Shown here one piece after another: positions 45,446 through 56,602 of a stretch of DNA of 64,000 bases; position 1 is the first letter of the stretch; each line of letters begins with the position of its first letter. The notes under the pieces were generated by a model. It did no database searches. It saw only the letters and a list, made by a program, of their open reading frames with translations, and had not been told where the DNA came from. This DNA comes from Candidatus Limnocylindrus sp. GTDB lineage: Bacteria > Chloroflexota > Limnocylindria > Limnocylindrales > Limnocylindraceae. The DNA is taken from contig JBBAWJ010000001.1 in NCBI GenBank assembly GCA_040397255.1, forward strand, positions 53,850 through 117,849, written 5' to 3'. The translations under genes and the position numbers were made by a program.

Positions 45446-46106
45446 CAGGGTCGCCCTCGAGCTCGCCTCGGTAGCCCGCGACGCCTCCACCTGCACGGCG
45501 TGCGGGCTCTCGGCGACGAGAACACAGGCGGTTCCCGGTGAGGGGAGCCCCACGGCAGCGCTGGTCTTTGTTGGGGAGGCTCCTGGGGCACGAGAGGACG
45601 TAGCTGGTCGCCCATTTGTGGGTGCCGCTGGCCGCCTTCTCGACGACCTGCTGGCCTCCATCGGCCTCCGGCGTGAGGAGGTCTTCATCCTGAATACGGT
45701 GAAGTGTCGACCACCAGAGAACCGCAACCCACAACGATCTGAGATCGCCGCATGCGCGCCACTCCTCTCGCGGCAGCTGCAAGCGCTGCAGCCGCGGGTC
45801 ATCGCCACCCTTGGCAGGCACGCTCTTGCTGTCTTTGCGCCCAGCGCGAAGATTGCAGAGGTGCATGGACGTCCGTACACACAGACAGAGGGTGGCCAGC
45901 AGGGAGGTGCCGTGCTCTTCCCCCTGTATCACCCTGCAGCGGCACTGCACAACGGGAGTTTGCGACCGACCCTGGAGCGCGATATGGCGGCCTTGCGGGA
46001 GCACCTCAACGCGGATGCTCGCGAAGGGGCGGGGGAGGCTACCCTACGCGAGGTGGATTCGGTGCCGACTCGGCCCCGTCCCAGGACGCAAGGGGAGGCT
46101 GAATGA
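45423..46106 (+). CDS. uracil-DNA glycosylase, family 4 (Fe-S type)
   Basis: CTACGL…VFVGEAPGAREDVAGRPFVGAAG…LNTVKCRPPENR matches family-4 UDG. Confidence 0.85.
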   Translation: MERTTTPDRVALELASVARDASTCTACGLSATRTQAVPGEGSPTAALVFVGEAPGAREDVAGRPFVGAAGRLLDDLLASIGLRREEVFILNTVKCRPPENRNPQRSEIAACAPLLSRQLQALQPRVIATLGRHALAVFAPSAKIAEVHGRPYTQTEGGQQGGAVLFPLYHPAAALHNGSLRPTLERDMAALREHLNADAREGAGEATLREVDSVPTRPRPRTQGEAE

Positions 46107-47842
46107 CCCAACGCCCGCAACCGGCACGCCGACCAGCTGAGGCGAGGCGTCCCCAGGAGACCCGTCGCCCCCATAAGGCGGCTGCGAGCGGACCAGCACT
46201 TCGCCTGATCCCGCTCGGCGGCATGGGGGAGATTGGGAAGAACCTCTACCTCTACGAGTATGAGGACACCATCATCCTCGTCGACTGCGGCCTCGCCTTC
46301 CCCGACGAGACCACCCTCGGCGTCGACATCATCATTCCTGACATCAGCTACCTGCGCGCACGCCGTAGTGCCGTGAAGGCGGTCCTCATCACCCACGGAC
46401 ACGAGGATCACGTCGGCGCGCTCCCGCACATCCTCCCTGAACTCCCTGGCGTGCCGGTCTACGCCAGCACCCTTGCGCGTGGGCTCCTCGCCAACAAGCT
46501 GAAGGAGTTCAAGGTCACCGCAAACCCGTTGCGCCCGCTCGATCCGGGCGGCCGACTTGAGGTTGGACCGTTCACGATCGAACCCTTCCGCGTCGGTCAC
46601 TCCATCCCAGATGCCATGGGCTACGCAATCCATTCACCTGTTGGAACAGTGATCCACACCGGCGACTTCAAATTTGACCAGACCCCAGCCGATGGAAAGA
46701 CGGCAGACTTCGCCATGCTGGCAAAGTTCGGCGCACAGGGGGTGCTTGCACTGGTGTCGGATAGCACGCGCGCTGAAGCTCCCGGGTACACGCCAAGTGA
46801 GCAGGTCGTTGGCCAGGCGTTCAAGGGGATCATTAGCAGCGCACCTGGCCGAGTGATCATCGCGACCTTCGCCTCGAACATTGCACGTATCCAGCAGGTG
46901 CTTGACGCGGCGGCGGAGTTCCATCGCAAGGTCGCCGTTGTCGGTCGCTCAATGGAGCAGAACGTCAAGATCGCACGCGACCTTGGCTATCTGAAATTCC
47001 CGACTCCACTCCTTGCGAAGGAGGAGATTGCGCGCCGCACGAAGGAGCCGCTCGTGATCGCCACCACCGGTGCGCAGGGTGAGCCGATGGCCGGACTCGC
47101 GAAGATGGCGAACGGGGAGCATCGCAACGTGGAGATTCAGAACGGCGATACCGTCATTGTCTCCGCATCACCGATTCCAGGCAACGAAGAGGCGGTCGGT
47201 CGAACGATTGACAACCTCTTCAGGTCCGGCGCCAACGTCATCTATCACTCCATCGCACAGGTGCACGTCTCGGGTCACGCCTCGCAAGAGGAGCTGAAGA
47301 TGATGCTCGCGCTCACCAAGCCGAAATACTTCGTACCGATGCACGGTGATATGCGCATGCAGGTGGCCCACGGGCGACTTGCAACACAGATGGGGGTACC
47401 ACCATCCGCGGTGTTCATCATCGATAACGGCACGCCGGTCGAGTTCTCTGCAGACGGCAGCGCGCGTCGTGGCAAACCGGTTGAACATGGCTCTGTCTTT
47501 GTTGATGGTTCGTCGGTGGGCGAGATCAGTGAAATCGTCCTCCGCGATCGACGCACCCTTGCTGACGATGGCATCGTTGTCGTGATCGCAACGATCGATG
47601 CACGGACCGGTAAGCCTGTCGGTCGCCCGGCACTCGTCACCCGCGGATTCCTCAACGGCGATGAGGACAACAAGCTCGTTGAAGAGGCGATCACGATCGC
47701 CCTGAAGGCAATCCAGCACAAGGGTGACCGTGGGGCAGAGGTGGGACTGATCAAGGCGCAGCTGAGTGAATCAGTATCGCGATTCCTCGGCAAGGAGACT
47801 CGACGTCGCCCTCTCGTGGTCCCTGTGGTGGTTGAGGTTTAA
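46103..47842 (+). CDS. rnj: ribonuclease J
   Basis: LRLIPLGGMGEIGKN…ITHGHEDHVGALP is an MBL/beta-CASP RNase J. 579 aa with a basic Pro/Arg-rich N-terminal extension. Confidence 0.9.
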   Translation: MTQRPQPARRPAEARRPQETRRPHKAAASGPALRLIPLGGMGEIGKNLYLYEYEDTIILVDCGLAFPDETTLGVDIIIPDISYLRARRSAVKAVLITHGHEDHVGALPHILPELPGVPVYASTLARGLLANKLKEFKVTANPLRPLDPGGRLEVGPFTIEPFRVGHSIPDAMGYAIHSPVGTVIHTGDFKFDQTPADGKTADFAMLAKFGAQGVLALVSDSTRAEAPGYTPSEQVVGQAFKGIISSAPGRVIIATFASNIARIQQVLDAAAEFHRKVAVVGRSMEQNVKIARDLGYLKFPTPLLAKEEIARRTKEPLVIATTGAQGEPMAGLAKMANGEHRNVEIQNGDTVIVSASPIPGNEEAVGRTIDNLFRSGANVIYHSIAQVHVSGHASQEELKMMLALTKPKYFVPMHGDMRMQVAHGRLATQMGVPPSAVFIIDNGTPVEFSADGSARRGKPVEHGSVFVDGSSVGEISEIVLRDRRTLADDGIVVVIATIDARTGKPVGRPALVTRGFLNGDEDNKLVEEAITIALKAIQHKGDRGAEVGLIKAQLSESVSRFLGKETRRRPLVVPVVVEV

Positions 47843-51970: not shown

Positions 51971-53518
51971 GTGACCCGCTCGATTAGCGATATTGCTGCT
52001 GGATTAGAGCCCTCCCGTGGAGGGGCGCCGCTCCAGCCTGGATCGCGCCTCCACATCATTGGGGTTGGCGGTACCGCCGCACTTGCGGCGGCGCTGCACG
52101 CCAAGGCACTCGGGCTGAGCGTTTCAGGGTACGACCAGGCGCTGGCAGGGGAGTCGGCGGCGATCCTCTCGCACGCGGGGATACCGGTCGGCTCTTCGAC
52201 CAGCCCCGAGGTCCTGCAGGCCTGCGCAGCACTGAACGCTGGGAGCGTGGTCGCCATCTCCAAGGCGATTACGAGCACCCAGCCGAATCATCCTGAGGTG
52301 CTGCTCGCACGAGCAGCTGGCGCGCATGCGGTCTCCGTGCAGCAGGTGATCGCTGACGCCGCTGCAACACGCGGCGGGCTCATGATCGGCGTTGCCGGAA
52401 CGCACGGCAAGACGACCTCTACTGGATGGGTTCTCGATGCGCTCGTTCGTTCTGGTATTGACCCATCAGCCTTTGTCGGCGGCCCACTCGGCATAGAGCT
52501 GGGCACACCTACCGGCTCGCCCGTACATATCGGTACCGACCCTGGTTTCGTCGTTGAGGCTGACGAGTACGGCGGCAACTTTGACACCTACAACGCTGAT
52601 CGCGCACTGGTTCTCAATGTGGATTGGGATCATCCCGACATCTTTGCCGACCGTCGCGCCGCTGCAGAGACCTTTGCACGCTGGGCGGCTTATCCGGCCG
52701 AGAGCGGCGCCGCGTTCATCAATAGTGGTGACCAGGGTGGCGCTGAGCTCGCCGCGCTCCTCGCTTCTGGAGGGCATCGCAACATCTACACCCTCTCAAC
52801 CTCAACGACAGCTGGCGCACCGCAGGCAGACGTGATCGCGACGGTAAGGTCACGCGGGGAGGCGGCCTTCTCAATCACCATCAAGCACCTCTCCGACCGC
52901 GCCGCCCTCGCAGCTCCAGCACTTCGCGATCTTCTCAATTGTGAGTTGCCGATCGGGCTCCTTGGCGCGCATAACGCCTCGAATGCTCTCGGTGTTGCCG
53001 CGCTTGCGGCCAGCGCAGGCGGGAGCGCCGATGCGATTGCGCGTTCACTCGCCACCTTTGGGGGTGTAGGTCGCCGCATGGAGGTGCGCTATGACCACGG
53101 TTCGATCACTGTCCTCGACGACTACGGCCATCATCCAACCGCAATTGACGCCACGCTGGAAACGGTCCGTCAGCGATATCCCGGCCGAACGCTTCTCCTC
53201 GCAATTGAGCCACTGACATATCACCGTACCGCTGCGCTGCTGGAAGGCCTGGCGCAGTCGTGCAGTGCTGCAGACCGAGTTGCGGTCGCCGAGATCTTCG
53301 CCGTGCGCGACCTCGACACCACGAGCGTTTCGGCCGCTGACCTTGCCGAACGGATCGCAGCCATGGGCACACCCGCCACCGCGCCAGGAACCGTCCTGGA
53401 GACCGCGGCAGCCCTCCTCCCGAGCATCACCCCTGGGACAGTGGTCCTGGTGATGGGCGGCGGACGATCAACTGAGCTGGCAGCGGCGCTGGCCCGAGGA
53501 CTCACGGCCGCGTCGTAA
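51971..53518 (+). CDS. Mur ligase family protein (MurC- or Mpl-like UDP-N-acetylmuramate--L-alanine ligase)
   Basis: IGVGGTAALA…GYD N-terminal domain. VAGTHGKTTST P-loop. EADEYGGNF. DDYGHHPTAIDATL C-terminal motif. Not located in a dcw cluster. Confidence 0.75.
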   Translation: MTRSISDIAAGLEPSRGGAPLQPGSRLHIIGVGGTAALAAALHAKALGLSVSGYDQALAGESAAILSHAGIPVGSSTSPEVLQACAALNAGSVVAISKAITSTQPNHPEVLLARAAGAHAVSVQQVIADAAATRGGLMIGVAGTHGKTTSTGWVLDALVRSGIDPSAFVGGPLGIELGTPTGSPVHIGTDPGFVVEADEYGGNFDTYNADRALVLNVDWDHPDIFADRRAAAETFARWAAYPAESGAAFINSGDQGGAELAALLASGGHRNIYTLSTSTTAGAPQADVIATVRSRGEAAFSITIKHLSDRAALAAPALRDLLNCELPIGLLGAHNASNALGVAALAASAGGSADAIARSLATFGGVGRRMEVRYDHGSITVLDDYGHHPTAIDATLETVRQRYPGRTLLLAIEPLTYHRTAALLEGLAQSCSAADRVAVAEIFAVRDLDTTSVSAADLAERIAAMGTPATAPGTVLETAAALLPSITPGTVVLVMGGGRSTELAAALARGLTAAS

Positions 53519-53546: not shown

Positions 53547-55157
53547 CTAGGCGCCTTCCGGTGAGCCAGCGGCGGCATCAGGGCCCGGCGGCGGCTGCGT
53601 TGCAGCGGTAGCGGCGAGTGCTTTCGCCTCCTCGCTCTCGGGACGCGCAAAGAGGGGATGACCATCGGAGGTTAAACAGCGTCCCGTCGCCAGATCCCAC
53701 TGCCACCCATGGATGCTGCAGGTCAACGTTTCGCCGTCTGTCGTTCCAAAGCGTGTCAGGTCGGCCTTCATGTGCGGGCAGCGGCGCTGGATCTGCCAGC
53801 CGGTCAGGTCGAACGTCCCCTCCGTTGGGCCGTTCTCGGCATAGAAGCCTTCGGCGTACTGGATCCGTGCCGTGGAGAGGCACTTAAACCAGGTGTAGAC
53901 GTAGTCGTTATAGGCACCTTTGCGCCACGCTGAGAAGCGCAACGAGAGGAAGAGGCTGTTGACCCAGTCATCGGTGCGCGTGCGTACCAGGTGGTCCAAG
54001 AGGTAGCGGGGGATCGTGAACCGGAAGTCGACCTCTCGGCCATCATCGGCGATGACCGACCGCTCAGGGAAGTCGAGGAGGATCGCCTCGTCATCGGTCT
54101 GGATCTTGATCGTGGTGCCGATCCCGTCGCAGACACGAGGGCCGAGTGCCATGAGTGGCTCTAGCCAGGTCTTCAGCTCTGGTACGAGGTTGCTCCGAGG
54201 TCCAGCCCACGACGCCTTTTCCGCTGCAATGACAGGAGCCATGTCGGCTGCGTATCTGCGCAAATACACCTCTTTGTTCGCAAAGACATCCTGCACAGAC
54301 AGATCACCCTGTAAATGCTGCACGTTGAAGATTCCGTCAGCATTGAACTCTCCAACGCTCCCCGGGAGCATCAGAACGGCCGCCTGACCCTCAGCCTGCA
54401 GGCGCTCAACCATGAAGCGCTGGTCGGGGAAGATCGAATCGTCGGCGTCGTTGACGTCATTCCAGCGGAAGAGCTCGTCATCGAGGAAGCAGGGGGGTCC
54501 CGCAGAGGGGATCACAACACGGGGCGAGATGATCTCCACGTAGCGAGCGGCGCGGGTGAACTGCGCGGCGCGTTTCTTCTTGGCAAGCGCCTCAGCGGCC
54601 CTCGCCGGCATCTCATAGACCATCGGGTACCAGATCGCACCGCTGAACTGCAGGAGGCAGATATCGATTGCGCCCTGCACCAGAAGGCGATCGGGGTCTG
54701 TGGGGCGGCTGTCATTCAGGTTCAGGAGGCGCTCTACGCCGTCGTCGATGAGCAGCGCGGAATCACCAATGGGGCCGTCTGTAGGGGCTGTGAGGGCCTC
54801 CACGACGATGCTGAGGCCACCATGGCGCACAGGAACGCCCGACTGCGTCTCGATAAACGTATGGAATCCGAGCCCCTGGAGGGCCTCTTTCAGCTCCGGA
54901 AGCGGGTAGGCGGGGAGGATGACCACTGCGTCCTTGTTGCAGTAGGCCTTGAGCCACTCAGGGTCGAAGTGGTCTCGATGCAGGTGGCTGATGTACAGGT
55001 AATCAGTGGCACCCAGGGCGGTATGGTCAAGGTTGTCGTTTCGTGGGTATGGGAACCAACCCGCGTAATACGCAGGGTTGAACCAGGGGTCGCACAAGAT
55101 TGAGCCGTGCGCGGTGAGGATCTTGACTCCGGCCTGGGCGATGAATTCAATCCGCAT
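53547..55157 (-). CDS. MBL-fold metallo-hydrolase fused to a C-terminal Rieske [2Fe-2S] domain
   Basis: N-terminal HxHxDH (YISHLHRDHFD). C-terminal CPHMKADLTRFG…(17)…CSIHGWQWDLATGRC is a Rieske CxH…CxxH motif. 536 aa. Own AT-rich promoter region upstream. Confidence 0.7.
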   Translation of the reverse strand: MRIEFIAQAGVKILTAHGSILCDPWFNPAYYAGWFPYPRNDNLDHTALGATDYLYISHLHRDHFDPEWLKAYCNKDAVVILPAYPLPELKEALQGLGFHTFIETQSGVPVRHGGLSIVVEALTAPTDGPIGDSALLIDDGVERLLNLNDSRPTDPDRLLVQGAIDICLLQFSGAIWYPMVYEMPARAAEALAKKKRAAQFTRAARYVEIISPRVVIPSAGPPCFLDDELFRWNDVNDADDSIFPDQRFMVERLQAEGQAAVLMLPGSVGEFNADGIFNVQHLQGDLSVQDVFANKEVYLRRYAADMAPVIAAEKASWAGPRSNLVPELKTWLEPLMALGPRVCDGIGTTIKIQTDDEAILLDFPERSVIADDGREVDFRFTIPRYLLDHLVRTRTDDWVNSLFLSLRFSAWRKGAYNDYVYTWFKCLSTARIQYAEGFYAENGPTEGTFDLTGWQIQRRCPHMKADLTRFGTTDGETLTCSIHGWQWDLATGRCLTSDGHPLFARPESEEAKALAATAATQPPPGPDAAAGSPEGA

Positions 55158-55188
55158 GGGGGGAGGATAGCGACGTTCTGTACTCGGC

Positions 55189-55210
55189 GCCCAGCCTGCG
55201 CCCAGCCTGC
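55189..55210. repeat. perfect tandem 11-mer gcccagcctgc x2 in the MBL-Rieske leader (candidate operator)
   Basis: Units at 55189-55199 and 55200-55210, between the promoter and the start codon. Confidence 0.5.
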
Positions 55211-55227
55211 TTCGTCACATAACTATC

Positions 55228-55256
55228 ATTATCGGAACCAAGATAGGATAAGCCAA
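55228..55256 (-). promoter_or_regulatory. sigma70-like promoter TTGGCT-17-GATAAT for the MBL-Rieske gene, in an unusually AT-rich stretch
   Basis: Minus-strand -35 at 55251-55256 and -10 at 55228-55233 with a 17-nt spacer. About 75-nt leader with no SD (CCUCCCCCC precedes the AUG). Confidence 0.4.
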
Positions 55257-55315
55257 AGCACGGGGCCGCCTCCTGTAACTACCCCGCTGACGTGTGCGCG
55301 GGCTCGGGTTCCGGC

Positions 55316-56602
55316 TTAGAGCAGCTTCGCCGTTGAGTTGCGCTTCAGCCGCTTCAGTTCGCTAGCCAGCTCGGCGGTGGCAAAACCTGTGACATGGAGG
55401 GCATCTTCGTCGTAGGCCACCTGGATGCCGCCCCGGGCGCGAATCGCCTCAACCTCCCCCACCGCCGTGTATGGGAGGCGGAGGTCGACCGGGGTCCCTT
55501 GACGCTGTAGCGCCTCTTCGAGGGCGCTGCGGAGCGGACCGAGGCCGAGCCCCGTCGCCGCCGAAACGCCTAGCGCTGCGGGGTCAATTTCACGCGCGTG
55601 CATCTGCGCCGCGTCAATCTTGTTAGCGGCAATGATGCGGGGCTTCTCAGCGGCACCGAGTTCATCGAGAACGGCCTGCACCGTGGCGCGGTGCTCCAGG
55701 GCGTGATGGTCTGAGGCGTCAACAACCTCAAGGAGGAGGTCGGCGCGGGCGACCTCTTCGAGGGTGGCGCGGAATGCGTCGACCAGCTGGTGCGGCAGCT
55801 TATGGATGAACCCCACCGTGTCCGTGACGATGGCGTGGAGGCCGCCAGGCAAGCGAACCCTGCGGCTCGTTGGATCGAGGGTGGCAAAGAGGCGATCTTC
55901 GGCTAGCACCACGCTGCTCCCGACCAGGCTATTGAGGAGCGTCGACTTTCCAGCATTCGTGTAGCCAACGATGGCAACGGTCGGTTCGCCACGTGTGGTG
56001 CGGCTCTTTGCGCCCGTCTCGCGGCTGCGGCGCACCTGGTCGACGCGCGCCTTCATGACCGAGATGCGATCGCGGATCAGTCGGCGGTCGGTTTCAAGCT
56101 GCGACTCACCGGGGCCGCGCGTACCGATGCCGCCGCCCGTCCGCGAAAGGTGCGTCCACAGCTTTGTCAGTCGCGGCAGCTGATACTCCAGCTGTGCCAG
56201 CTCCACCTGTAGGCGACCCTCGCGCGTTCTGGCGTGCAAGGCAAAGATGTCAAGGATGAGTCGGCTGCGGTCAATGACCTTCACGCCGAGCACCTCTTCA
56301 AGGCCACGCTGCTGCGTCGGCGAAAGCTCGTCATCGGCGATTAGCACCGTGAAGCCCGTCTCAACCTTCGCTGCAAGCAACTCTTGCGCCTTACCAGCGC
56401 CGATGTAGGTGTCGGGGTCGGGGTGTCGTCGCTGCTGCCATTCAGCACCAACAACTTCAGCGCCCGCCGTGCGTGCGAGGCTTGCGAGCTCCTGAAGGCT
56501 ATCCTCAGCCGGCCAGCCCACGTCGCTACCAGTGTCTACTGCAATGAGGAAAGCGCGCTCTGGCGCAGGCGTCAGGTCAATCGGTGCGAGTTTCTTTGTC
56601 AC
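55316..56602 (-). CDS. hflX: GTPase HflX
   Basis: IVGYTNAGKSTLLN G1 motif, DTVGF G3 and NKID G4 (FIHKLPHQLVDAF). The GTG 56602 start was chosen to avoid a 67-nt overlap with miaA. Confidence 0.85.
   Translation of the reverse strand: MTKKLAPIDLTPAPERAFLIAVDTGSDVGWPAEDSLQELASLARTAGAEVVGAEWQQRRHPDPDTYIGAGKAQELLAAKVETGFTVLIADDELSPTQQRGLEEVLGVKVIDRSRLILDIFALHARTREGRLQVELAQLEYQLPRLTKLWTHLSRTGGGIGTRGPGESQLETDRRLIRDRISVMKARVDQVRRSRETGAKSRTTRGEPTVAIVGYTNAGKSTLLNSLVGSSVVLAEDRLFATLDPTSRRVRLPGGLHAIVTDTVGFIHKLPHQLVDAFRATLEEVARADLLLEVVDASDHHALEHRATVQAVLDELGAAEKPRIIAANKIDAAQMHAREIDPAALGVSAATGLGLGPLRSALEEALQRQGTPVDLRLPYTAVGEVEAIRARGGIQVAYDEDALHVTGFATAELASELKRLKRNSTAKLL

What the first reader, a model, noticed from the sequence alone, without database searches (positions are those of the whole stretch)
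53547..55157. Fusion of an MBL-fold metallohydrolase with a C-terminal Rieske [2Fe-2S] domain, with its own strong promoter
- N-terminus: a metallo-beta-lactamase fold with HxHxDH (ISHLHRDHFD).
- Last about 100 aa: CPH-x17-CSIHGW, a textbook Rieske CxH…CxxH cluster-binding motif.

A redox cofactor domain fused to a hydrolase/di-metal MBL fold is unusual. MBL-fold di-iron domains occur in flavodiiron O2/NO reductases, where an electron-donating module is also fused. A Rieske domain could be an alternative electron donor, implying an oxidoreductase rather than a hydrolase.

The gene is monocistronic at the junction of the two convergent gene blocks. It has the only AT-rich promoter region in the window and a tandem repeat in its leader.
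Basis: partly seen in the sequence, partly recalled or inferred. Interest (0 to 1): 0.55.

Follow-up and report, generated by a model that had tools for sequence, protein, structure and literature searches.

The report
NamH-type muramic acid hydroxylase in Chloroflexota
The gene encodes a full-length relative of NamH, the known oxygen-dependent enzyme that turns N-acetyl- into N-glycolyl-muramic acid in mycobacterial cell walls, so the domain fusion is an established family; the only mildly new point is that it sits in a freshwater Chloroflexota genome.

Summary
The ORF at 53547-55157 (-), 536 aa, is real, and both quoted motifs are present. It is not an odd hydrolase fusion. It has the three-domain layout of NamH (M. 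tuberculosis Rv3818, UDP-MurNAc hydroxylase): an MBL-fold domain, the Pfam "Rv3818-like SCP2" domain (E 1e-43), and a short C-terminal Rieske module. It is 47-52% identical over its full length to the single homologue in Mycobacterium, Nocardia, Gordonia, Glycomyces and Micromonosporaceae. JGI names its relatives "UDP-MurNAc hydroxylase". The window comes from Candidatus Limnocylindrus (Chloroflexota).

The HxHxDH motif, D127, D132, D149 and the four Rieske ligands are invariant in 79 sequences. The MBL domain is homologous to animal CMP-Neu5Ac hydroxylase (hhalign 95%) and resembles the di-iron hydroxylases CmlA and FrsH.

"Unusual" is wrong. The tandem repeat is an 11-bp duplication specific to this sequence. 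The best promoter candidate is a conserved TATCCT box 6 nt before the ATG, implying a leaderless mRNA, not the AT-rich site.

A MurC-like ligase is a conserved convergent neighbour. This is a new member of a known kind, and interest is low to moderate.

The parts
53547..55157 (-). namH-like CDS, 536 aa (MBL domain - SCP2_Rv3818 domain - Rieske module - disordered tail)
   Evidence: ORF. Pfam domains. JGI names its homologues 'UDP-MurNAc hydroxylase'. 49% identity over 513 aa to the Mycobacterium simulans 516-aa orthologue, E 6e-180.
54258..55157 (-). N-terminal MBL-fold domain (about aa 1-300), the presumed iron/O2 catalytic domain
   Evidence: Foldseek: TM_1162 MBL E 9e-11, CmlA 2.5e-10, FrsH 1.2e-9. 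Profile against PDB: FrsH E 2e-7, CmlA E 4e-4. hhalign to CMAH 95.4% over aa 1-221.
54969..54986 (-). HxHxDH motif (H58, H60, D62, H63)
   Evidence: Invariant in 79 of 79 family sequences from Chloroflexota, Dormiibacterota and Actinomycetota. Aligns with HxHxDH of CmlA and H197/H199/D201/H202 of CMAH.
54709..54779 (-). Invariant acidic residues D127, D132 (motif-3 loop 'TDGPIGDS') and D149 (motif-4 'NDS'), candidate additional iron ligands
   Evidence: 79 of 79 invariant. D149 aligns with the Asp of CmlA 'AADS' and CMAH D289. D127 and D132 align with CMAH D265 and D272.
53835..54188 (-). SCP2-like domain of the Rv3818 family (aa 324-441)
   Evidence: PF25451, E 1.2e-43, full profile 1-119. 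The same domain is present in Mycobacterium, Nocardia, Ktedonobacteraceae and Dormiibacterota orthologues.
53670..53789 (-). Rieske [2Fe-2S] cluster-binding module (aa 457-496; ligands C460, H462, C480, H483 at 53709-53780)
   Evidence: PF00355, E 8e-9. Ligands align residue for residue with SxtT and NdmA. Invariant in 79 of 79 sequences.
55164..55169 (-). -10-like hexamer TATCCT exactly 6 nt upstream of the ATG; candidate promoter of a leaderless mRNA
   Evidence: TANNNT lies 6-7 nt before the start codon, with no SD, in 14 of the 15 retrieved Limnocylindria-type loci whose intergenic regions are otherwise diverged (the window makes a 15th case). L005 has GATAAT at 8 nt. Ktedonobacteria and most Actinomycetota have an SD instead.
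55211..55242 (-). AT-rich block CTTGGTTCCGATAATGATAGTTATGTGACGAA (31 of 32 positions invariant), containing the scan's -10 GATAAT (55228-55233); candidate operator, UP element or alternative promoter
   Evidence: Conserved in 6 Limnocylindrus-type sequences with one substitution (L004), including L016 (84% protein identity), where the rest of the spacer differs. Single promoter-scan hit. Lowest-GC spot of the window.
55187..55210 (.). 11-bp tandem duplication (GCGCCCAGCCT x2.2)
   Evidence: TRF score 48. The five related sequences have a single copy, so this is a recent private duplication, not a conserved element.
51971..53518 (+). MurC-like Mur ligase, convergent neighbour 28 nt away
   Evidence: Mur_ligase_M and Mur_ligase_C. 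TIGR01082 murC, E 1e-72, 245 bits, below the 335-bit cut-off. The MurC-like/NamH convergent pair is kept in 12 Limnocylindria-type loci (L001-L004, L006-L008, L010, L012-L015) although DUF520 changes sides; in L006 the MurC-like match lies about 4.4 kb away.

Best explanation
The gene encodes an orthologue of NamH, the O2-dependent monooxygenase that hydroxylates the N-acetyl methyl group of the peptidoglycan precursor UDP-N-acetylmuramic acid to give UDP-N-glycolylmuramic acid.

Proposed mechanism:
1. Electrons from NAD(P)H reach the C-terminal Rieske [2Fe-2S] cluster (C460/H462/C480/H483) through an unidentified reductase or ferredoxin.
2. The cluster passes them to a non-haem iron site, mono- or di-nuclear, in the MBL-fold domain. 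That site is built from H58/H60/D62/H63 plus invariant carboxylates (D127, D132, D149).
3. O2 is activated there and the acetyl C-H bond is hydroxylated.
4. The SCP2-like middle domain probably shapes the substrate pocket or the subunit interface.

What is shown: the family assignment, the domain architecture and the conservation of candidate ligands. What is inferred: the substrate in this organism, the nuclearity of the iron site and the electron path.

In Limnocylindria the gene is probably transcribed from its own promoter as a leaderless mRNA, and it is kept next to a MurC-like ligase.
For: - **Architecture.** MBL + PF25451 'Rv3818-like SCP2' (E 1e-43) + Rieske. Mycobacterium, Nocardia, Ktedonobacteraceae and Dormiibacterota orthologues show the same layout.
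- **Names.** JGI calls the homologues 'UDP-MurNAc hydroxylase'.
- **Similarity.** 47-52% full-length identity to the homologue in Mycobacterium, Nocardia, Gordonia, Glycomyces and Micromonosporaceae. A pairwise comparison gave 49% over 513 aa, E 6e-180. PMC6194230 records namH across Corynebacteriales and MurNGlyc cell walls in a Glycomycetales/Micromonosporales sub-lineage.
- **Conservation.** 115 positions are invariant or nearly so across 79 sequences from three phyla. They include all four Rieske ligands, HxHxDH, D127, D132 and D149.
- **Homology to CMAH.** The MBL domain is homologous to animal CMP-Neu5Ac hydroxylase, which does the same N-acetyl to N-glycolyl chemistry. BLASTP gave E 1e-9. 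hhalign gave 95.4%, E 1.7e-8, with ligand columns matching.
- **Nearest solved relatives.** These are the di-iron MBL hydroxylases FrsH and CmlA.
- **Literature on the reaction.** UDP-MurNAc + O2 + NADPH -> UDP-MurNGlyc (PMC2722178; PMC10234563).
- **Context.** Conserved pairing with a MurC-like ligase.
Against: - No biochemical or cell-wall data exist for any Chloroflexota. I found no held paper linking namH or N-glycolylmuramic acid to this phylum.
- More distant subfamilies, about 30% identical, share the same architecture. The architecture alone therefore does not fix the substrate.
- The MurC-like neighbour is convergent, not co-transcribed, and the pairing is absent in Ktedonobacteria and Actinomycetota.
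- Canonical motif-3 and motif-5 histidines are absent, so the composition of the iron site cannot be read from sequence.
- No reductase partner is nearby.
Confidence: 0.8

Rival explanations
1. Same enzyme type (Rieske-fed iron monooxygenase in an MBL fold), but in Chloroflexota it hydroxylates a different N-acyl sugar precursor. Examples are another UDP-N-acetyl-hexosamine for a secondary cell-wall polymer or S-layer glycan, or a lipid-linked intermediate bound through the SCP2-like domain.
For: - The architecture extends into roughly 30%-identical subfamilies of unknown substrate.
- CMAH shows that the catalytic domain can act on a different N-acetyl sugar nucleotide.
- The step at which mycobacterial NamH acts is itself debated, with lipid II proposed (PMC3605390).
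- An SCP2-like fold is present.
Against: - About 50% full-length identity and 115 (near-)invariant positions shared with actinobacterial NamH are well above the level at which substrates usually diverge.
- The conserved neighbour is a MurC-like ligase, the consumer of UDP-MurNAc.
Confidence: 0.13
2. A metal-dependent MBL hydrolase whose Rieske cluster acts only as a redox or iron sensor, or as a structural element.
For: - Most MBL-fold proteins are hydrolases.
- The top Foldseek hits include hydrolases such as TM_1162 and Igni18.
Against: - The canonical motif-3 and motif-5 histidines of Zn hydrolases are missing. No invariant His lies between H63 and H281, and carboxylates take their place.
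- The best sequence relatives with structures are the oxygenases FrsH and CmlA.
- The domain is homologous to CMAH, a hydroxylase.
- The family's genetics show an O2-dependent hydroxylation.
Confidence: 0.04
3. The ORF is an assembly or frameshift artefact joining two genes.
For: None found.
Against: - The frame is uninterrupted.
- More than 4600 homologues were found; the best 120 listed are almost all full length with the same domain set. 553 matches encode a relative in species-representative genomes of several phyla.
Confidence: 0.01

Closest known systems
NamH, N-acetylmuramic acid (UDP-MurNAc) hydroxylase of Mycobacterium (Rv3818 / M. smegmatis namH; Raymond et al. 2005 J Biol Chem 280:326, as cited in PMC10050696, PMC10234563, PMC2722178)
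   Same: - Same three-domain layout and length.
- 47-52% identity end to end.
- Identical Rieske and HxHxDH/Asp residues.
   Different: - The host is Candidatus Limnocylindrus (Chloroflexota), not an actinomycete.
- The Chloroflexota and Dormiibacterota sequences form their own clade in a rough NJ tree.
- Conserved MurC-like neighbour and apparently leaderless expression.
- The product in this organism is untested.
CMAH, animal CMP-N-acetylneuraminic acid hydroxylase
   Same: - Same chemistry class, N-acetyl to N-glycolyl.
- Homologous MBL-fold domain (hhalign 95.4%, E 1.7e-8, NamH aa 1-221 against CMAH 139-363), with HxHxDH and three Asp columns shared.
- Also carries a Rieske domain.
   Different: - Domain order is permuted: Rieske is N-terminal in CMAH and C-terminal here.
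- Only about 23% identity.
- No PF25451 SCP2 hit on CMAH.
- The substrate is a CMP-sialic acid.
CmlA / FrsH, di-iron beta-hydroxylases with an MBL fold (PDB 4jo0, 5kik, 8a90)
   Same: - Best solved relatives of the N-terminal domain by sequence profile (E 2e-7 and 4e-4) and among the top Foldseek hits.
- HxHxDH and the motif-4 Asp align.
- Carboxylates replace histidines.
   Different: - No Rieske or SCP2 domain in CmlA/FrsH.
- They have a distinct N-terminal domain and act on carrier-protein-tethered amino acids.
- The positions of CmlA E377 and E430 do not align exactly with acidic residues here.
Flavodiiron O2/NO reductases
   Same: An MBL fold used for iron/O2 chemistry, with a fused electron-transfer module (PMC7785958).
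   Different: - No flavodoxin domain.
- Motif 2 is HxHxDH, not HxExDH.
- No flavodiiron protein appears among the sequence or fold hits.
- Those enzymes are reductases, not hydroxylases.
Rieske non-haem iron oxygenases (SxtT, NdmA, KshA)
   Same: Rieske CxH...CxxH module aligning ligand for ligand. The presumed Rieske-to-iron electron transfer follows the same logic.
   Different: - The catalytic domain here is an MBL fold, not the oxygenase alpha-subunit catalytic domain.
- The Rieske module is C-terminal and covers only the cluster-binding half of the Pfam profile.

Membership tests
NamH (UDP-MurNAc hydroxylase, Rv3818 family) | Three-domain architecture: MBL (UlaG-like) + Rv3818-type SCP2-like domain + C-terminal Rieske | tested here: met
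   (PF25451 E 1e-43; Rieske E 8e-9; Lactamase_B_3 weak). Same pattern in Mycobacterium and Nocardia orthologues. The domain description of NamH is in PMC10050696.
NamH (UDP-MurNAc hydroxylase, Rv3818 family) | Full-length sequence similarity to the namH product of genera that make N-glycolylmuramic acid | tested here: met
   47-52% identity over aa 1-502+ to Mycobacterium, Nocardia, Gordonia, Glycomyces and Micromonosporaceae loci. 49% over 513 aa, E 6e-180. Not compared directly with the H37Rv Rv3818 sequence, which was not retrievable.
NamH (UDP-MurNAc hydroxylase, Rv3818 family) | Rieske ligands CxH-x(15-17)-CxxH conserved | tested here: met
   C460, H462, C480 and H483 are invariant in 79 of 79 sequences. 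They align with the SxtT and NdmA ligands.
NamH (UDP-MurNAc hydroxylase, Rv3818 family) | O2- and NADPH-dependent conversion of UDP-MurNAc to UDP-MurNGlyc | not testable with these tools
   The reaction is taken from PMC2722178. It needs an enzyme assay.
NamH (UDP-MurNAc hydroxylase, Rv3818 family) | N-glycolylmuramic acid present in the organism's peptidoglycan | not testable with these tools
   No held paper reports it for Chloroflexota.
CMAH (CMP-Neu5Ac hydroxylase) family | Homologous MBL-fold catalytic domain | tested here: met
   BLASTP E 1e-9. hhalign 95.4%, 208 columns.
CMAH (CMP-Neu5Ac hydroxylase) family | N-terminal Rieske domain followed by the MBL domain; end-to-end similarity | tested here: not met
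   Rieske is C-terminal here. Only aa 1-221 align, and the Rieske segments align in permuted order. This is a sister family, not membership.
Flavodiiron proteins | HxExDH di-iron motif and a fused flavodoxin (FMN) domain | tested here: not met
   The motif is HLHRDH. No flavodoxin hit in Pfam. No flavodiiron protein in the PDB sequence or fold hits.
CmlA-type di-iron MBL beta-hydroxylases | MBL fold with HxHxDH, a bridging Asp and Glu ligands in place of the motif-3 and motif-5 His | tested here: inconclusive
   HxHxDH and D149 align. CmlA E377 falls 3 residues from D127. It was identified by the E377D entry 5kil, which differs at that column. CmlA E430 falls on S172. Ligand roles in CmlA are from my own knowledge of Makris et al. 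2013.
Zn-dependent MBL hydrolases | Motif-3 His and motif-5 His completing the binuclear Zn site | tested here: not met
   No invariant His between H63 and H281 in 14- and 79-sequence alignments. Invariant Asp residues occur instead.
Rieske non-haem iron oxygenase alpha subunits | N-terminal Rieske domain plus C-terminal oxygenase catalytic domain | tested here: not met
   Only the Rieske segment (aa 454-513) matches SxtT, NdmA and KshA. No ring-hydroxylating catalytic domain in Pfam.

The most novel reading that the evidence does not exclude
N-glycolylated peptidoglycan is not an actinomycete speciality. A NamH lineage that is separate from, and not recently transferred from, the actinobacterial one is present in Chloroflexota (Limnocylindria, Ktedonobacteria) and Dormiibacterota. 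That includes the abundant freshwater plankter Candidatus Limnocylindrus, which would then carry N-glycolylmuramic acid in its wall. There the gene is kept beside a MurC-like ligase, which favours action at the UDP-MurNAc step. It would be expressed as a leaderless mRNA under a conserved AT-rich, Fur-box-like upstream element, which suggests control by iron or oxygen.
Probability: 0.5. Interest if true: 0.4.

Novelty: new member of a known kind. Interest (0 to 1): 0.25.

Why it matters
NamH-made N-glycolylmuramic acid raises resistance to lysozyme and beta-lactams. It also makes mycobacterial muramyl dipeptide a stronger NOD2 ligand (PMC10234563, PMC2722178). The literature I could read treats the enzyme as confined to certain aerobic actinomycetes.

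Clear orthologues in Chloroflexota and Dormiibacterota would widen the distribution of this wall modification to other Terrabacteria, including a dominant lake bacterium. There it could matter for resistance to grazer lysozymes.

Neither NamH nor CMAH has a solved structure. A small, well-conserved Chloroflexota orthologue could therefore be a useful target for working out how a Rieske cluster feeds an MBL-fold iron site. Beyond that, the finding is an ordinary annotation.

Tried and rejected
- **Frameshift or fusion artefact.** Rejected.
- **Flavodiiron membership.** Rejected.
- **Leader RNA element.** Rfam found nothing at E<=1. RNAalifold on six relatives gave no meaningful covariation.
- **Tandem repeat as a regulatory feature.** Rejected; it is a private 11-bp duplication.
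- **AT-rich site as the 'strong promoter'.** Not upheld as stated. Its -35 is not conserved, and a conserved -10 box abuts the start codon.
- **Fur-box idea for the AT-rich block.** It rests only on a 10-nt match to the consensus, which I recalled from memory. There is no second copy in the window at <=3 mismatches. It remains untested.
- **Cluster-to-iron distance.** It could not be measured. The model (pLDDT 80, pTM 0.74) is returned without coordinates.
- **SCP2-like domain alone against PDB sequences.** No hit.
- **Raymond et al. 2005.** Not held. No held paper states the NamH-CMAH homology, so I tested it directly. I recalled a CMAH sequence only to fetch real database CMAH entries, then compared those entries with the window protein.
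- **H37Rv Rv3818.** The sequence itself was not retrievable. Other Mycobacterium species' orthologues were used instead.
Full report
**Observation.** ISHLHRDHFD lies at residues 56-65. The C-terminal motif is C460-P-H462-x17-C480-S-I-H483.
- Pfam gives three hits. PF25451 'Rv3818-like, SCP2-like domain' covers residues 324-441 with E 1.2e-43 and the whole profile. Rieske PF00355 covers residues 457-496 with E 8e-9, above the cut-off, but matches only profile positions 40-77 of 88. Lactamase_B_3 is a sub-threshold hit at residues 2-71.
- The MBL fold is confirmed structurally. An AlphaFold2 model built on 22 sequences has mean pLDDT 80 and pTM 0.74. It matches MBL-fold structures at Foldseek E 1e-10.
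The folded Rieske part is only about 65 residues, followed by a disordered tail.

**Identity.**
- A search of 5.8 billion proteins returned more than 4600 homologues. The best 120 listed are nearly all about 510-570 aa with the SCP2_Rv3818 and Rieske domains, apart from a few fragments. Where a source names them, JGI calls them 'UDP-MurNAc hydroxylase'.
- Rv3818 is namH of M. tuberculosis. It encodes the hydroxylase that converts the N-acetyl group of muramic acid into N-glycolyl. It is described as an N-terminal UlaG-type beta-lactamase-superfamily domain plus a C-terminal Rieske domain (PMC10050696; PMC6194230).
- The reaction is UDP-MurNAc + O2 + NADPH -> UDP-MurNGlyc (PMC2722178; PMC10234563).
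- A scan of one genome per species found at least 553 matches encoding a relative. The window is 95-99% identical to Candidatus Limnocylindrus and unclassified Chloroflexota MAGs. It is 47-57% identical to other Chloroflexota, to Ktedonobacterales and to one Dormiibacterota MAG. It is 47-52% identical over the whole length to Mycobacterium, Mycolicibacter, Nocardia, Gordonia, Glycomyces and Micromonosporaceae.
- Against the 516-aa Mycobacterium simulans protein the match is 49% over 513 residues, E 6e-180.
- Orthologues from Mycobacterium, Nocardia, Ktedonobacteraceae and Dormiibacterota show the same Pfam pattern, including the half-Rieske match.
- The fusion is therefore genuine, ancient and already described. 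A frameshift artefact is excluded.

**Distribution.**
- A rough neighbour-joining tree with midpoint root and no support values separates a Chloroflexota plus Dormiibacterota clade from an Actinomycetota clade. The window's group sits on a long branch inside the former. This argues against recent transfer from mycobacteria.
- An exhaustive search of 50%-identity representatives gave 2398 hits at E<=1e-3 and 270 at E<=1e-30. These include full-length proteins about 30% identical, several of which carry the same three Pfam domains. The architecture is thus broader than the NamH-like core group.
[quoted passage not shown] PMC6194230 maps its distribution only within Actinobacteria. I found no held paper linking it to Chloroflexota.

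**Metal sites.**
- In 79 aligned sequences, 115 positions are invariant or have one exception. They include H58, H60, D62, H63, D65, D127, D132, N148, D149, Q170, S172, D226 and D234, and the Rieske ligands C460, H462, C480 and H483.
- No invariant histidine lies between H63 and H281 (H281 itself is His in 76 of 79 sequences). The motif-3 and motif-5 histidines of zinc hydrolases are therefore absent, and carboxylates are conserved instead.
- A profile of the N-terminal domain finds, as its best solved relatives, the di-iron MBL-fold hydroxylases FrsH (E 2e-7) and CmlA (E 4e-4). HxHxDH aligns, and D149 aligns with the Asp of CmlA's 'AADS'. From my own knowledge of the CmlA structure papers, that Asp is the bridging ligand.
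- CmlA Glu377 can be identified because entry 5kil (E377D) differs at that column. It falls three residues from D127.
- I fetched real CMAH entries from the database and compared them with the window protein. BLASTP gave E 1e-9 over residues 1-220. Profile-profile comparison gave 95.4% probability, E 1.7e-8. HxHxDH, D127, D132 and D149 fall on invariant CMAH residues H197/H199/D201/H202, D265, D272 and D289.
- CMAH carries out the same N-acetyl to N-glycolyl conversion and has its Rieske domain at the N-terminus. NamH and CMAH therefore share a catalytic domain with the Rieske module in permuted position.
There is no HxExDH, no flavodoxin domain and no hit.

**Context.**
- The downstream convergent neighbour, 28 nt away, is a Mur ligase closest to MurC. 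It scores TIGR01082 E 1e-72, 245 bits, below the 335-bit equivalog cut-off.
- In 12 Limnocylindria-type loci a MurC-like gene follows NamH in convergent orientation, even though DUF520 sits on the other side of the pair in the more distant ones. In L006 the MurC-like match lies about 4.4 kb away. The pairing is absent within 5 kb in Ktedonobacteria and Actinomycetota.
- MurC consumes UDP-MurNAc. The step at which NamH acts is still debated (PMC3605390). The pairing is weak support for action at the nucleotide-sugar stage.

**Promoter and leader.**
- The spacer to hflX is 158 nt. It contains the lowest-GC 40-50-nt stretch of the window, by a small margin, and one sigma-70-like match, TTGGCT-17-GATAAT.
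- In six close relatives a 32-nt AT-rich block (55211-55242) is conserved with a single substitution (L004). This holds even in L016, where the surrounding spacer has diverged. The proposed -35 is not conserved.
- The 11-bp repeat is a duplication found only in the window.
- No Shine-Dalgarno sequence precedes the ATG. Instead TATCCT lies exactly 6 nt upstream (55164-55169).
- The window and 14 of the 15 retrieved Limnocylindria-type loci, with otherwise unrelated spacers, have a TANNNT hexamer 6-7 nt before the start codon. The remaining locus (L005) has GATAAT at 8 nt. Ktedonobacteria and most Actinomycetota have a clear AGGAG or GGAAGG instead.
- The best reading is a leaderless mRNA from a promoter abutting the start codon. 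The AT-rich block then lies at about -55 to -85. It could be an upstream operator or UP element. None of this is experimentally anchored.
- No Rfam family matches, and no structure is supported by covariation.

**Mechanism, novelty and limits.**
- The supported picture is a Rieske-fed, O2-activating iron site in an MBL fold that hydroxylates the acetyl group of a muramic acid precursor. The family assignment and ligand conservation are shown. The substrate in this organism, mono- versus di-iron, the electron donor and the role of the SCP2-like domain are inferred.
- The finding is a new member of a known kind, of low-to-moderate interest. The fusion is textbook NamH, but its presence in Chloroflexota and Dormiibacterota extends a modification usually regarded as actinomycete-specific.
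- Model coordinates and two fold libraries were unavailable. The cluster-to-iron distance was therefore not tested.

Noticed in passing
window 55164-55169 (- strand); L006-L008, L010, L012-L016 just upstream of the NamH start: A -10-like hexamer (TATCCT or TACCAT) sits 6-7 nt before the start codon, with no Shine-Dalgarno, across Limnocylindria-type loci. This suggests leaderless namH mRNAs. Neighbouring DUF520 genes in the same loci have strong GGAGG sites.
   Followed up: partly
window 55211-55242 (- strand): An AT-rich block, CTTGGTTCCGATAATGATAGTTATGTGACGAA, is conserved at 31 of 32 positions upstream of namH in six Limnocylindrus-type sequences. Its core GATAATGATA equals the first 10 nt of the Fur-box consensus as I recall it. 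There is only one copy in the 64-kb window at <=3 mismatches.
   Followed up: partly
window 51971-53518 (+): The MurC-like ligase scores well below the TIGR01082 equivalog cut-off (245 against 335 bits). It is a conserved convergent partner of namH in Limnocylindria. Whether it is the organism's only MurC, or one adapted to N-glycolyl substrates, is unknown.
   Followed up: partly
L001 (CAMAXG010000001.1): This record is titled 'Thermoflexus hugenholtzii JAD2' MAG. It is 98% identical in NamH and syntenic over 11.6 kb with the Candidatus Limnocylindrus loci, so the taxonomic label looks wrong.
   Followed up: no
proteins P0159, P0171, P0184, P0195, P0253, P0262: Full-length relatives only about 30% identical keep MBL and Rieske domains. 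Four of them also keep the SCP2_Rv3818 domain, and one (P0195, 736 aa) has a 230-aa N-terminal extension. They may be paralogous hydroxylases with other substrates.
   Followed up: partly
window 55324-55363: An imperfect 19-nt x 2.2 tandem repeat (82% matches) lies inside the 3' end of the hflX coding region, next to the namH upstream spacer.
   Followed up: no
window 55158-55315 (- strand), alignment A2 columns 65-69 and 179-184: A conserved CAGGRGG about 100 nt upstream is complementary to the invariant TATCCTCC before the ATG. RNAalifold pairs them, but no compensatory change on both sides was seen.
   Followed up: partly
window 46103-47842 (+): A second MBL-fold protein in the window is an ordinary RNase J (Lactamase_B + beta-CASP + RNase_J_C), unrelated to the finding.
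   Followed up: no
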